Below, piece by piece: positions 3,523 through 11,269 of a DNA stretch of 64,000 bases; the stretch's first letter is position 1; every line of letters begins with the position of its first letter. This DNA is from an uncultured Thermoleophilia bacterium (GTDB lineage: Bacteria > Actinomycetota > Thermoleophilia > UBA2241): the NCBI GenBank assembly GCA_963717285.1, contig CAVQVW010000002.1, positions 516,783 to 580,782 of the forward strand, given 5' to 3'. The translations under genes were made by a program, and so were the position numbers. Below the pieces are notes generated by a model that was not told the origin of the DNA, made no database searches, and worked only from the letters and a program-made list of their open reading frames with translations.

Positions 3523-5475
3523 GTGGCAGACGAGCAGAGCATCTACTATCCATCGCCAGAGGCCTCGAAGAACGCCTACATCAAGAACATGGAGGAGTAC
3601 GAGGCGCAGTACAGGCGGTCTGTCGAAGATCCCGAAGGGTACTGGGCCGAGCGCGCCGAACAGTCGCTCACCTGGACCAAGAAGTGGGACACCGTCCTCG
3701 ACTACAGCTGGGACCCCACGCCGACCATCAAGTGGTTCGAGGGCGGAGAGCTCAACGTCACCTACAACTGCCTCGATCGCCATGTGGAGGCGGGCAAGGG
3801 CGGCAAGACCGCGGTCATCTTCGAGAGCGACCAGGGCGACAACATCAGCTACACGTACCAGGAACTCCTGGATGAAGTCTGCAAGTTCGCCAACGTCCTG
3901 AAGAAGCACGGCGTCGAGAAGGGCGATCGCGTCGCCGTGTACCTGCCCATGATCTCGGAGGTGCCGATCGTCTTGCTCGCCTGTGCGCGCATCGGCGCCG
4001 TCCATATGGTGGTCTTCGGCGGGTTCAGCGCCGACTCGCTGCGCGCCCGCATCGACGACTGCGGAGCGAAGGTGCTCGTCTGCGCCGACAAGGGCTACCG
4101 TGGCGGCCGCATCATGGCGTCCAAGACCAACGCCGATGACGCCATCAGCGGCGAGACGCCGATCGAGACCGTGATCGTCATCAAGCGTGTCGACGGCGAC
4201 GTGCCGATGCAGGAGGGCCGCGACGTCTGGTACCGGGACGAGATGGCCGCCGCCGACATCACGACCGATTGCCCGGTCGTGCCGTGCGAGTCCGAACACC
4301 CGCTCTTCATCCTGTACACCTCCGGGTCCACCGGCAAGCCCAAGGGCGTCCTGCACACCACTGCCGGCTACCTCCTGTACGTGCACGAAACGGCGAAGTA
4401 CGCGTTCAACCTGCACGAAGACGACATCCATTTCTGCGCCGCGGACGTCGGCTGGGTGACGGGTCACAGCTACATCGTCTACGGCCCGCTGTCCAACGGG
4501 GTCACCACGGTCGTCTTCGAGAGCATCCCGAACTACCCCGAGCCGGACCGCTACTGGCAGGTCATCGACAAGCTCAAGACGACGACGCTGTACACAGCCC
4601 CGACCGTCATCCGCAGCCTCGTCGGCCAGGGCGCCGAGTGGCCGCAGAAGCACCCCATGTCCAGCCTGCGCATCATCGGCACCGTCGGAGAACCCATCGA
4701 CCCCAACAGCTGGAAGTGGTACTACGACAACGTCGGCAAGGCCAGCATCCCGCTTGTCGACACGTGGTGGCAGACCGAGACGGGCGGCCACATGATCACG
4801 CAGCTGCCCGGCGCCACGCCGATGAAACCCGCCTCGGCCGGCCGCCCGTTCTTCGGCATCCAGACCCAGGTACTGAGAGACGACGGCAGCGAGGCAGACG
4901 TCGGCGAACAGGGGCACCTCGTGATCTGCGCGCCCTGGCCGGGCATGCTGCGCGGCACCTGGGGCGACGCCACCGGCACGCGCTTCAAGGAAGTCTACTT
5001 CAGCATGTTCAAGAACAGGTTCTATACGGGCGACGGCTGCGTCATCGACGCCGACGGCGACCACTGGCTCAAGGGCCGCATCGATGACGTCCTGAACGTC
5101 TCCGGTCACCGGCTCGGCACCGCCGAGATCGAGAGCGCGCTCGTCAGCCATATGGATGTCGCAGAGGCCGCCGTGGTCGGCTATCCGCACGACATCAAGG
5201 GGACGGGCATCTACGCCTACGTGGTCCTGAATGCCGGCTACGAGCCGAGCGACGAGCTCGCCACGGAGCTGGAGAACCACGTCCGCAAGGTCCTCGGCCC
5301 TATCGCGAAGCCCGACAAGCTGCAGTTCACCCCCGGGCTTCCCAAGACCCGCTCCGGCAAGTGCATGCGCCGCATCCTGCGCAAGATCGCCGAAGGCGAG
5401 CTGGACTCCCTGGGAGACACGACGACGTTGGCCGATCCGGCCGTCGTCGAGAACCTCAAGGAGAACCGCAAGTAG
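3523..5475 (+). CDS. acs: acetyl-coenzyme A synthetase (AMP-forming)
   Basis: 650 aa. Acs N-terminus SIYYPSPEASKNAYIKNMEEYEAQY..DPEGYW. Adenylation motifs YTSGSTGKPKGV and TGD. C-terminal PKTRSGKCMRRILRKIA, including the acetylation-target Lys (K613, nt 5359-5361). GGAGG RBS 7 nt before the GTG start. Confidence 0.9.
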   Translation: MADEQSIYYPSPEASKNAYIKNMEEYEAQYRRSVEDPEGYWAERAEQSLTWTKKWDTVLDYSWDPTPTIKWFEGGELNVTYNCLDRHVEAGKGGKTAVIFESDQGDNISYTYQELLDEVCKFANVLKKHGVEKGDRVAVYLPMISEVPIVLLACARIGAVHMVVFGGFSADSLRARIDDCGAKVLVCADKGYRGGRIMASKTNADDAISGETPIETVIVIKRVDGDVPMQEGRDVWYRDEMAAADITTDCPVVPCESEHPLFILYTSGSTGKPKGVLHTTAGYLLYVHETAKYAFNLHEDDIHFCAADVGWVTGHSYIVYGPLSNGVTTVVFESIPNYPEPDRYWQVIDKLKTTTLYTAPTVIRSLVGQGAEWPQKHPMSSLRIIGTVGEPIDPNSWKWYYDNVGKASIPLVDTWWQTETGGHMITQLPGATPMKPASAGRPFFGIQTQVLRDDGSEADVGEQGHLVICAPWPGMLRGTWGDATGTRFKEVYFSMFKNRFYTGDGCVIDADGDHWLKGRIDDVLNVSGHRLGTAEIESALVSHMDVAEAAVVGYPHDIKGTGIYAYVVLNAGYEPSDELATELENHVRKVLGPIAKPDKLQFTPGLPKTRSGKCMRRILRKIAEGELDSLGDTTTLADPAVVENLKENRK

Positions 5476-11269: not shown

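What the first reader, a model, noticed from the sequence alone, without database searches (positions are those of the whole stretch)
3523..11269. acs followed by two tandem paralogous Pat/PatZ-type lysine acetyltransferase genes
Acs retains the C-terminal motif PKTRSGKCMRRILRKIA, whose SGK lysine (K613, nt 5359-5361) is the site acetylated by Pat-type enzymes in Salmonella and E. coli. Directly downstream, after a strong hairpin terminator at 5530-5568, sit two collinear genes of about 895 aa (5649-8336 and 8585-11269). Both carry the Salmonella/E. coli-type order, with an NDP-forming acyl-CoA synthetase-like N-terminus (CoA-binding fold, KSGRT...SHTGA[IM]AG, ATP-grasp) and a C-terminal GNAT. 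The characterised Streptomyces PatA has the reverse domain order, as recalled. A tandem duplication of the presumed Acs regulator beside its target is unusual. The copies may have split substrates (acetyl versus propionyl/succinyl, or different acyl-CoA synthetase targets). Alternatively one may retain true ADP-forming acyl-CoA synthetase activity, since the SHTGA motif is intact in both.
Basis: partly seen in the sequence, partly recalled or inferred. Interest (0 to 1): 0.5.

Follow-up and report, generated by a model that had tools for sequence, protein, structure and literature searches.

The report
Acs beside two Pat acetyltransferase paralogs
An acetate-activating enzyme gene is followed by two old, diverged copies of the enzyme that most likely switches it off; relatives carry one to three copies, and unlike the E. 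coli model enzyme these copies keep the catalytic residues of an ATP-making acetyl-CoA enzyme, fully in one copy and partly in the other.

Summary
It comprises acs (3523-5475, target lysine K613 at 5359-5361), a strong conserved hairpin (5530-5568), and two collinear genes of 895 and 894 aa (5649-8336, 8585-11269). The two are 66% identical and share the full PatZ-type architecture (ADP-forming acyl-CoA-synthetase-like module plus C-terminal GNAT).

This is not a recent duplication. The genes belong to two of three ancient paralog lineages (g1, g2, g3) in a small clade of uncultured Thermoleophilia. Close relatives carry 1, 2 or 3 copies after acs, and a 93-97% identical genome shows a deletion scar where pat1 sits.

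pat2 (g3) is the ancestral copy. It is as constrained as acs and carries a conserved promoter-like element. pat1 (g1) evolves 2-3 times faster.

Both keep the GNAT catalytic Glu and P-loop, and both keep the swing-loop phospho-histidine that E. coli and Salmonella Pat lack. Only pat2 keeps the second (ATP-grasp lid) histidine; all g1 genes have Tyr there. Family-wide, 66 of 101 sampled fusions keep both histidines.

Best reading: Acs-directed lysine acetyltransferase paralogs whose sensor module may still be enzymatically active in pat2. It is a modestly novel variant of a known system. No biochemical function is shown.

The parts
3523..5475 (+). acs, AMP-forming acetyl-CoA synthetase (650 aa)
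   Evidence: TIGR02188 933.5 bits against cut-off 724.95; Pfam ACAS_N, AMP-binding and AMP-binding_C.
5341..5361 (+). PX4GK acylation motif PKTRSGK; target lysine K613 = AAG at 5359-5361
   Evidence: Coordinates computed. The motif is identical in the Acs of L001, L002, L058 and L060.
5530..5568 (+). Conserved 17-bp hairpin after acs (putative U-poor terminator or attenuator)
   Evidence: Region z = -4.44. The hairpin is kept in 6 loci, with compensatory changes in 4 of 16 pairs. Terminator function is inferred.
5649..8336 (+). pat1 (g1 lineage), type I ACD-GNAT protein, 895 aa: fast-evolving accessory paralog
   Evidence: Domains; PatZ match E = 4e-157; AF2 model TM 0.83-0.85 to PatZ. The g1 clade has 99.5% bootstrap, and dN/dS is 0.25-0.32. 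The gene is deleted in L005.
6414..6416 (+). pat1 H256 (CAC), swing-loop phospho-His equivalent (ACD1 H254-alpha, Nmar_0206 H256)
   Evidence: PMC11494057; PMC12184503.
7269..7271 (+). pat1 Y541 (TAC) at the ATP-grasp lid histidine position (Nmar_0206 H535, PatZ H531)
   Evidence: The same TAC codon is present in the g1 genes of L001 and L002.
8118..8165 (+). pat1 GNAT catalytic Glu E824 (8118-8120) and P-loop QGKGLG (8148-8165)
   Evidence: Aligned to PatZ E809 and G822-G824.
8337..8584 (+). pat1-pat2 spacer (248 nt), with no significant RNA structure
   Evidence: Fold z-scores +0.73 and +0.47. There is only a weak possible coding relic at 8397-8459 (E = 0.03).
8516..8546 (+). Conserved promoter-like element GATGA-N18-GTAGAGTA upstream of pat2
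   Evidence: It is the only match in 64 kb, with 0 expected in 100 shuffles. The exact pattern lies upstream of g3 in L002, pat2 in L005 and L062, the single-copy pat in L058 and gA in L060/L061; L001_g3 and L060_gB carry variants. Promoter function is inferred.
8585..11269 (+). pat2 (g3 lineage), type I ACD-GNAT protein, 894 aa: conserved ancestral copy
   Evidence: Domains; PatZ match E = 1e-161. The g3 clade has 100% bootstrap, and dN/dS is 0.09-0.13, like acs. It is retained in every relative examined.
9350..9352 (+). pat2 H256 (CAC), swing-loop phospho-His equivalent
10205..10207 (+). pat2 H541 (CAC), ATP-grasp lid histidine retained
11051..11098 (+). pat2 GNAT catalytic Glu E823 (11051-11053) and P-loop QRKGIG (11081-11098)

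Best explanation
This is an acetate-switch locus of an uncultured Thermoleophilia (Actinomycetota) bacterium.

**Proposed mechanism (inferred by homology).** Acs makes acetyl-CoA from acetate. The genes downstream encode type I (Pat/PatZ-family) protein lysine acetyltransferases that acetylate Acs K613 in the PKTRSGK motif and so inactivate it when acetyl-CoA is plentiful. Each Pat has an N-terminal module resembling an ADP-forming acyl-CoA synthetase (ACD), made of CoA-binding, ligase-CoA and ATP-grasp domains. This module binds acetyl-CoA, phosphate and nucleotide, and allosterically opens the C-terminal GNAT domain.

**Roles of the two copies.** pat2 is the ancestral, indispensable copy at this locus. 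It has its own promoter-like element, constraint as strong as acs, and is present in every relative. pat1 belongs to an old sister lineage (g1) of an array that once held up to three paralogs. It is accessory: it evolves faster, is lost in a near-identical genome, and lacks an obvious Shine-Dalgarno sequence or promoter. It has replaced the ATP-grasp lid histidine with tyrosine while keeping all GNAT catalytic residues. It most likely has a diverged target, acyl-donor or effector range.

**Difference from the model enzymes.** Unlike E. coli and Salmonella Pat, the ACD module here is not degenerate. pat2 retains the complete ACD catalytic set and may still perform phospho-histidine chemistry. 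pat1 can at best perform the CoA-site half.

**Shown:** sequence, architecture, residues, phylogeny, synteny and selection. **Inferred:** Acs as the target, allostery, and any enzymatic activity.
For: - Full-length homology and fold match to solved PatZ.
- The GNAT Glu and P-loop are intact in both copies.
- Acs carries the exact acetylation motif, conserved in relatives.
- acs-pat adjacency is conserved in the clade: acs-pat-dnaX with a single pat in L058; 2 copies in the window, L062, L060 and L061; 3 copies in L001 and L002; 1 copy plus a deletion scar in L005.
- The g1, g2 and g3 clades have 99.5-100% bootstrap support.
- dN/dS is 0.09-0.13 for g3, 0.18 for g2 and 0.25-0.32 for g1, against 0.08-0.17 for acs.
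- The lid position is Tyr (TAC) in all g1 genes and His in g2, g3 and 116 of 126 close homologues.
- A promoter-like element is unique to the pat2 upstream region within the window and conserved across loci.
- Published PatZ data show that acetyl-CoA binding to the regulatory module gates the GNAT domain, and that the module helps bind Acs (10.1101/2024.11.12.623305).
Against: - There are no biochemical or expression data for any member of this clade.
- No deacetylase (sirtuin or HDAC type) lies in the 64-kb window.
- The PatZ regulatory-site arginines R26 and R81 and the GNAT residue K860 are not conserved here.
- The PatZ residues that contact Acs are only partly conserved, which is uninformative.
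- Apart from H541Y, almost no fixed paralog-specific changes occur at conserved sites, so there is no sequence signature of a new specificity for pat1.
- Deep nodes of the paralog tree are unresolved, and only neighbour-joining trees were available.
Confidence: 0.6

Rival explanations
1. Bifunctional enzyme model. In pat2 (and perhaps g2), the N-terminal module is a working ADP-forming acetyl-CoA synthetase (acetyl-CoA + ADP + Pi <-> acetate + ATP + CoA). The fused GNAT domain shuts off the AMP-forming Acs next door, so the two opposing acetate enzymes do not run a futile cycle. pat1, lacking the lid His, would be the acetyltransferase-only derivative. This model overlaps with the best explanation but makes catalysis, not sensing, the main job of the large module.
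For: - pat2 keeps every ACD catalytic element checked: swing-loop H256, E217, lid H541, the D-x-N-P Mg site, GPNCLG, NAGGPG and the GF[KR]E.GE.G segment. PatZ has lost or altered all of these except E217 (PatZ E209) and the lid His (PatZ H531).
- The swing-loop His is invariant in 126 of 126 close homologues.
- All 32 stand-alone ACDs and 66 of 101 fusions keep both His residues.
- The ACD part of pat1's model is about as similar to archaeal ACD1 (36-39% identity) as the whole protein is to PatZ (34%).
- TIGR02717 scores of 540 and 543 bits fall just under the 567 cut-off.
- NCBI names relatives 'bifunctional acetate--CoA ligase family protein/GNAT family N-acetyltransferase'.
- Loss of this His is the stated reason PatZ and SePat are inactive (PMC12184503; PMC3195501).
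Against: - No type I GNAT has been shown to have ACD activity, and reviews treat the module as inactive (PMC8556138).
- PatZ still binds acetyl-CoA, phosphate and ATP without catalysis, so ligand sensing alone could conserve many of these residues.
- A third of fusions have lost one or both His residues, which shows that catalysis is dispensable for the fusion's core role.
- The scores fall below the NCBIfam equivalog cut-offs.
Confidence: 0.3
2. Hetero-oligomer model. pat1 and pat2 assemble into mixed tetramers (PatZ is a homotetramer). pat1 would serve as a catalytically altered regulatory subunit that tunes the cooperativity or specificity of pat2.
For: - PatZ functions as a tetramer with extensive CBD-LCD and CBD-CBD interfaces.
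- g1 genes are only ever seen together with a g3 gene in the same array.
- The flavodoxin-like and ligase-CoA parts are the most conserved between pat1 and pat2 (79% and 70% identity).
Against: - pat2-type genes function alone in many genomes (L058, L059) and in L005 after loss of pat1.
- pat2 has its own promoter-like element, and pat1 appears to be expressed differently.
- No interface analysis or complex prediction was possible with these tools.
Confidence: 0.15
3. Redundancy and decay model. pat1 is a functionally redundant leftover of an array that is being lost, with no distinct role.
For: - pat1 is cleanly deleted in a 93-97% identical genome.
- g2 is absent from the window, and a degraded coding relic persists in L005.
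- g1 has the highest dN/dS (0.25-0.32).
- The g1 gene of L001 has a degenerate P-loop, QHRSIG.
- pat1 has a weak ribosome-binding context.
Against: - The ORF is intact at 895 aa in three lineages whose g1 proteins are only 69-72% identical.
- dN/dS is well below 1.
- The GNAT Glu, the P-loop (in the window and L002) and the swing-loop His are all kept, and the Tyr541 TAC codon is fixed in all g1 genes.
- The predicted structure is confident (pLDDT 84).
Confidence: 0.15

Closest known systems
E. coli PatZ (YfiQ) / Salmonella enterica Pat, type I GNAT protein lysine acetyltransferases
   Same: - Same length and domain order (CoA-binding, ligase-CoA, ATP-grasp, then GNAT).
- Full-length alignment (E about 1e-160) and fold match (TM 0.83-0.85).
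- Catalytic Glu (PatZ E809) and P-loop conserved.
- The presumed target, Acs, carries the same PKTRSGK motif.
   Different: - Only 34-36% identical.
- PatZ has lost the swing-loop His (4-residue deletion; L245 replaces ACD1 H254), the GF.E.GE.G segment, GPNC, NAGGPG and the Mg-site Asn. The window proteins keep all of these (PMC12184503).
- PatZ R26, R81 and K860 are not conserved here.
- patZ is a single gene and is not next to acs in the 10-kb E. coli region examined.
- Here there are 1-3 tandem paralogs directly after acs.
ADP-forming acyl-CoA synthetases (ACD): Ca. Korarchaeum ACD1, Pyrococcus ACS, Nitrosopumilus Nmar_0206
   Same: - The N-terminal ~700 residues have the same subdomain set.
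- 30-39% identity to ACDs in the fold search.
- Both catalytic histidines in pat2 (H256 and H541, equivalent to Nmar_0206 H256 and H535), plus the Mg site and glycine-rich motifs.
   Different: - A C-terminal GNAT domain is fused on.
- pat1 has Tyr at the lid His position.
- Scores fall below the NCBIfam equivalog cut-offs (540 and 543 against 567 for TIGR02717; 552-584 against 1300 for the full-length ligases).
- No activity is known for any fusion.
Streptomyces lividans PatA (type II GNAT)
   Same: It is an actinobacterial Acs-acetylating enzyme that combines a GNAT domain with an ACD-like module. Its GNAT domain structures (4nxy, 4u5y) are detectable matches.
   Different: The domain order is reversed (GNAT at the N-terminus), and its ACD-like domain is reported to lack the catalytic His (PMC8556138). 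The Thermoleophilia proteins are type I.
Bacillus subtilis acsA-acuABC (own knowledge, not tested here)
   Same: It is a precedent for the Acs gene sitting beside the gene for its acetyltransferase.
   Different: AcuA is a small stand-alone GNAT, transcribed divergently and accompanied by a deacetylase (AcuC). There is no ACD-like module and no paralog array.
Rhodopseudomonas palustris Pat (RpPat) (own knowledge; listed in PMC4053389)
   Same: It is a type I Pat that acetylates several AMP-forming acyl-CoA synthetases. This is a model for how paralogs could divide a set of such targets.
   Different: It is single-copy. Its histidine status and gene context were not examined here.

Membership tests
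Type I GNAT protein lysine acetyltransferase (Pat/PatZ/YfiQ) | [quoted passage not shown] | tested here: met
   Pfam domain order in both proteins. Full-length alignment to 9it0/9isq. The pat1 AF2 model matches PatZ with TM 0.83/0.85.
Type I GNAT protein lysine acetyltransferase (Pat/PatZ/YfiQ) | GNAT motif A P-loop (Q/R-x-x-G-x-G/A) and a catalytic glutamate (PatZ E809) | tested here: met
   pat1 has E824 and QGKGLG; pat2 has E823 and QRKGIG.
Type I GNAT protein lysine acetyltransferase (Pat/PatZ/YfiQ) | Regulatory-module acetyl-CoA pocket (PatZ K23, R26, R81) | tested here: inconclusive
   Position 23 is R in pat1 and K in pat2. R26 aligns with S/T, and R81 with A (pat1) or S (pat2, which has R80). 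The pocket resembles that of true ACDs rather than PatZ.
Type I GNAT protein lysine acetyltransferase (Pat/PatZ/YfiQ) | ACD-like module catalytically dead because the catalytic His is absent (as described for characterised members) | tested here: not met
   H256 is present in both proteins. This is a description of the studied enterobacterial and Streptomyces enzymes, not a property of the family: 75 of 101 fusions keep this His.
Type I GNAT protein lysine acetyltransferase (Pat/PatZ/YfiQ) | Acetylates the PX4GK lysine of Acs or other AMP-forming acyl-CoA synthetases; cooperative activation by acetyl-CoA; homotetramer | not testable with these tools
   Only the target motif (PKTRSGK, K613) and gene adjacency could be shown.
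ADP-forming acyl-CoA synthetase (ACD, EC 6.2.1.13 type) | Swing-loop phospho-histidine (ACD1 H254-alpha, Nmar_0206 H256) | tested here: met
   SHTGA with H256 in both proteins.
ADP-forming acyl-CoA synthetase (ACD, EC 6.2.1.13 type) | Second histidine in the ATP-grasp lid (Nmar_0206 H535; P. furiosus His71-beta from own knowledge) | tested here: inconclusive
   Met in pat2 (H541). Not met in pat1 (Y541) or in any g1 orthologue.
ADP-forming acyl-CoA synthetase (ACD, EC 6.2.1.13 type) | Curated family score (NCBIfam TIGR02717 alpha-subunit domain, cut-off 567.15; full-length ligase equivalogs, cut-offs 1200-1300) | tested here: not met
   540.2 bits (pat1) and 543.3 bits (pat2), just under the cut-off. 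The full-length models score 435-584 bits, far under theirs.
ADP-forming acyl-CoA synthetase (ACD, EC 6.2.1.13 type) | Reversible acetyl-CoA + ADP + Pi <-> acetate + ATP + CoA activity | not testable with these tools
   Requires an enzyme assay.
AMP-forming acetyl-CoA synthetase (Acs) | Equivalog-level family score and a C-terminal PX4GK catalytic/acylation lysine | tested here: met
   TIGR02188 933.5 against 724.95; NF001208 963.5 against 657. PKTRSGK with K613.

The most novel reading that the evidence does not exclude
pat2-type proteins, and with them the two-thirds of type I GNATs that keep both catalytic histidines, are true bifunctional enzymes. Under this reading an ADP-forming acetyl-CoA synthetase makes ATP and acetate, and it is fused to an acetyltransferase that simultaneously switches off the opposing AMP-forming Acs encoded next door. 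That would be a self-contained acetate switch that prevents a futile cycle. The Thermoleophilia array would then preserve successive stages of an enzyme-to-sensor transition side by side: pat2 is fully competent, pat1 has lost the lid His, and enterobacterial Pat has lost the swing-loop His.
Probability: 0.25. Interest if true: 0.7.

Novelty: new variant of a known kind. Interest (0 to 1): 0.4.

Why it matters
Reversible acetylation of Acs by Pat is the textbook case of bacterial metabolic control by lysine acetylation. Its large 'regulatory' module is taught as a dead enzyme, because the E. coli, Salmonella and Streptomyces proteins lack the catalytic histidine.

This locus and the family survey show that picture comes from atypical members. 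Most ACD-GNAT fusions sampled keep both catalytic histidines, whereas stand-alone ACDs never lose them.

The tandem pair offers a natural experiment within one genome, beside the presumed target. One copy has the complete ACD catalytic set and the other lacks just the lid histidine. Direct assays on these two proteins would answer whether type I acetyltransferases are also energy-conserving acetate-forming enzymes, and what extra paralogs are for. If activity is absent, the result still defines which residues are kept purely for sensing.

The finding is otherwise an ordinary gene-family expansion in an uncultured lineage.

Tried and rejected
1. **Recent tandem duplication: rejected.** The copies are 66% identical, synonymous sites are near saturation (dS about 0.8), and each copy has orthologues in other genomes.
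2. **Assembly artefact: rejected.** An independent 99.3% identical assembly has the same order.
3. **SHTGA retention as a special feature of this locus: rejected.** It is the family norm.
4. **Exact-sequence look-ups of pat2/P0001** found no contig. The window's own genome was not among the reference-genome hits, so the taxon is inferred from contigs 93-99% identical.
5. **Consensus promoter and terminator scan** found nothing useful in 3000-12000. The hairpin and the promoter-like element were found by folding and comparative alignment instead.
6. **Search for a g2 remnant in the window spacer** gave only a weak hit (E = 0.03). The relic in L005 could not be assigned to a paralog.
7. **Scan for paralog-specific fixed changes** at sites at least 90% conserved gave only V240A (g1) and L500I (g3). 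Beyond H541Y there is no clear specificity-shift signature.
8. **Mapping PatZ's Acs-contact residues** (N227/K228, R395/Y398) was uninformative. Both copies have S235/K236, R395 aligns with H (pat1) or L (pat2), and Y398 lies in a PatZ-only insertion.
9. **Looked for a deacetylase or further acyl-CoA synthetases in the window:** none found.
10. **Literature searches** for tandem Pat arrays or ACD activity in type I GNATs found nothing relevant. The ACD1 structure paper (PMC4747732) is not held.
11. **Phylogeny limits.** Only neighbour-joining trees were possible, and the deep order of g1, g2, g3 and the single-copy clades is unresolved.
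Full report
**Observation**

- acs is at 3523-5475 (650 aa).
- Two collinear genes lie at 5649-8336 (895 aa) and 8585-11269 (894 aa). 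A longer ORF for the first gene starts at ATG 5586.
- Acs passes the NCBIfam equivalog cut-off for acetate--CoA ligase (933.5 bits against 724.95).
- Acs carries PKTRSGKCMRRILRKIA, with K613 encoded by AAG at 5359-5361.
- The two downstream proteins share 594/895 identities (66%) with a single gap.
- Both contain, in order, CoA_binding_2, Succ_CoA_lig, Ligase_CoA_2, ATP-grasp_5 and GNAT domains.
- The sequence at 5530-5568 is a perfect 17-bp hairpin. The region folds with z = -4.44 against shuffles.

**Identity of the proteins**

The best matches among solved structures are full-length E. coli PatZ (9it0_A and 9isq_A, E about 1e-157 to 1e-162). ADP-forming 4-hydroxybutyryl-CoA and acetyl-CoA synthetases come next. 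An AlphaFold2 model of the more divergent copy, pat1, has pLDDT 84 and pTM 0.80. It superposes on apo PatZ with TM 0.83/0.85 over about 900 columns.

Both GNAT domains keep the catalytic Glu (PatZ E809; pat1 E824, pat2 E823). Both keep the Q-x-x-G-x-G P-loop.

These are therefore type I GNATs in the sense of PMC8556138 and the PatZ structure paper.

**Organism and synteny**

The nearest genomes are uncultured Thermoleophilia MAGs. One contig (L062) is 99.3% identical and collinear with window 1-18139. This shows the arrangement is not an assembly artefact.

The local gene order in the window is:

- DUF2252 (1063-2460)
- TMEM175-like (2533-3180)
- acs, pat1, pat2
- large SRP RNA (11353-11617)
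- dnaX, ybaB, recR

Relatives show the following arrangements.

| Locus | Arrangement |
|---|---|
| L058 | acs-pat-dnaX-ybaB-recR, single pat |
| L059 | single pat before dnaX, no acs |
| L060/L061 | acs-pat-(Ser/Thr kinase on the opposite strand)-pat |
| L001, L002 | acs followed by three tandem genes (g1, g2, g3) |
| L005 | pat1 deleted (details below) |

In L005, which is 93-97% identical to the window, window 5667-8445 is missing. The first 18 nt of pat1 are fused to its last ~25 nt including the stop codon. A roughly 140-nt degraded ATP-grasp coding relic follows.

Outside this clade, 50 loci from other phyla carry single copies that are rarely near acs. Copy number at this locus is therefore 1, 2 or 3 among close relatives.

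**Evolution of the paralogs**

I built a bootstrapped neighbour-joining tree on 882 ungapped columns with 200 replicates.

- g1 (window pat1, L001_g1, L002_g1) has 99.5% support.
- g2 has 99.5% support.
- g3 (window pat2 and its orthologues) has 100% support.
- The first L060 copy is sister to g3 (88%).
- Deeper nodes are unresolved.

Searching 5.8 billion proteins with pat1 found no further g1 members beyond these loci.

Nei-Gojobori dN/dS between orthologues is as follows.

| Gene or lineage | dN/dS |
|---|---|
| g3 | 0.09-0.13 |
| g2 | 0.18 |
| g1 | 0.25-0.32 |
| acs | 0.08-0.17 |

dS is close to saturation in this G+C-rich genome, so these ratios are only relative measures.

pat2 is thus the ancestral, strongly constrained copy and is retained everywhere. 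pat1 is an old, faster-evolving and dispensable paralog that is still under purifying selection.

**Catalytic residues of the ACD-like module**

In ADP-forming synthetases the phosphoryl group passes between two histidines. One sits in the ATP-grasp lid (Nmar_0206 H535) and one on the swinging loop (H256) (PMC11494057).

PatZ and SePat are held to be inactive because the swing-loop His is missing. ACD1 H254 is replaced by L245 in PatZ (PMC12184503; PMC3195501; PMC8556138).

Both window proteins keep the swing-loop His (H256). The table lists further motifs that both window proteins keep and what PatZ has instead.

| Motif in the window proteins | State in PatZ |
|---|---|
| SAGF[KR]E.GE.G | 8-residue deletion |
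| GPNCLG | GPNSLG |
| TNAGGPGV | SNGAAPAA |
| MD[VI]NP (Mg site) | LDIHP |

The two copies differ at the lid histidine. pat2 has H541. pat1 has Y541 (TAC), and the same codon is present in the g1 genes of L001 and L002. g2, g3 and 116 of 126 close homologues have His there. In PatZ this residue (H531) contacts the ATP triphosphate.

For a less biased view I ran a whole-library HMMER search. It returned 48,455 hits, and I analysed the best 150 representatives of 50%-identity clusters.

| Class | Count |
|---|---|
| Stand-alone ACDs keeping both His | 32 of 32 |
| ACD-GNAT fusions keeping both His (as in pat2) | 66 of 101 |
| Fusions keeping only the swing-loop His (as in pat1) | 9 of 101 |
| Fusions keeping only the lid His (as in PatZ) | 4 of 101 |
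| Fusions keeping neither | 22 of 101 |

Histidine loss is therefore recurrent and specific to fusions. The characterised enzymes are the derived minority.

**Regulatory signals**

The hairpin after acs is conserved in six loci, whether g1 or a single pat follows. Four of its 16 pairs show compensatory changes. It is probably a U-poor terminator or attenuator, but that is an inference.

Nothing comparable follows pat1 or pat2.

A motif, GATGA-N18-GTAGAGTA, lies at 8516-8546, 39 nt before the pat2 start. It is the only match in the 64-kb window, with none in 100 shuffles. The exact pattern recurs upstream of several g3-type and single-copy pat genes and of L060/L061 gA (L002, L005, L058, L060, L061, L062), with variants upstream of L001_g3 and L060_gB. 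It does not occur upstream of g1 or g2. I read it as pat2's own promoter, also by inference.

pat1 has no such element and only a weak ribosome-binding context.

**Interpretation**

The best-supported model is an acetate-switch locus. Pat-type enzymes sense acetyl-CoA through the ACD-like module and acetylate Acs K613. This follows what has been shown for PatZ.

pat2 is the core enzyme. pat1 is an accessory paralog with an altered nucleotide site and unknown specialisation.

The main rival, which partly overlaps, is that pat2's large module is a working ADP-forming acetyl-CoA synthetase. The fusion would then couple acetate and ATP formation to inactivation of the opposing Acs.

The invariance of the swing-loop His and the intact motif set argue for some phospho-histidine chemistry. 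Two facts argue for caution. PatZ binds all its ligands without catalysis, and a third of fusions have lost one or both histidines.

The hetero-tetramer and simple-redundancy models are less likely but not excluded. No function was tested.

**Novelty**

The proteins are clear members of a known family, and NCBI already names relatives 'bifunctional acetate--CoA ligase family protein/GNAT family N-acetyltransferase'.

I did not find the following described in the searchable literature:

- the tandem 1-3-copy array beside acs with three ancient lineages;
- the lineage-specific lid His to Tyr change;
- the quantitative point that most type I GNATs retain both ACD catalytic histidines.

I rate this a new variant of a known kind, of moderate interest.

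Noticed in passing
window 11353-11617 (+): A large-type bacterial SRP RNA (Rfam RF01854, 196.8 bits) lies between pat2 and dnaX-ybaB-recR. The SRP RNA region is 93% identical in L058.
   Followed up: partly
window 26535-34636 (+): A gene cluster resembles the MetFV-Hdr-type methylene-tetrahydrofolate reductase complexes of anaerobes (resemblance from my own knowledge). It comprises a 1481-aa Fe-S/flavin oxidoreductase (two Pyr_redox_2 regions, Fer4, DPD-type 4Fe-4S), MetV-like DUF5981, MTHFR (MetF), a 4Fe-4S protein and a CCG-domain (HdrB-like) protein. Relatives L058 and L059 have pyruvate:ferredoxin oxidoreductase and NuoE/F-like genes after recR. An anaerobic, acetate-forming lifestyle would make a working ACD module relevant.
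   Followed up: no
L005 about 9946-10173 (counterpart of window 8337-8445): After the pat1 deletion scar lies a roughly 140-nt degraded relic of an ATP-grasp coding segment (aa 597-643 equivalents, blastx E 1e-9 to 1e-7). It has no clear counterpart in the window. The spacer is essentially unalignable although the flanks are 93-97% identical. Its position after the pat1 stop remnant suggests a leftover of the middle gene g2, but this could not be shown.
   Followed up: partly
L060 8444-9820 (-) and L061 8445-9821 (-): In one relative, a Ser/Thr protein kinase gene with a PASTA domain sits on the opposite strand between the two pat genes.
   Followed up: no
L031 2882-5530 and 10001-12709 (+), a deltaproteobacterial MAG: This is an independent case of two ACD-GNAT genes about 4.5 kb apart. 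Both keep the swing-loop His, and both have lost the lid His (Cys and Arg).
   Followed up: partly
window 47583-47658 (-) compared with L001 1683-1757 and L002 1867-1945: The tRNA-Val(GAC) gene that lies about 350-430 nt upstream of acs in L001 and L002 is 42 kb away in the window, which indicates a local rearrangement upstream of acs. The window has DUF2252 and TMEM175-like genes there instead.
   Followed up: no
L059 1-5704: A defence-type island lies just upstream of the single pat gene in this relative. It contains DarT-Macro (DarTG-like), MmeI/Eco57I-type methyltransferase-restriction genes and a ResIII helicase.
   Followed up: no
window 14754-16022 (-) and 16048-17001 (-): Two conserved ORFs (422 and 317 aa, high GC3) have no Pfam match. 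The second lies where relatives have a shorter Peptidase_C39_2-like gene (258-259 aa).
   Followed up: no
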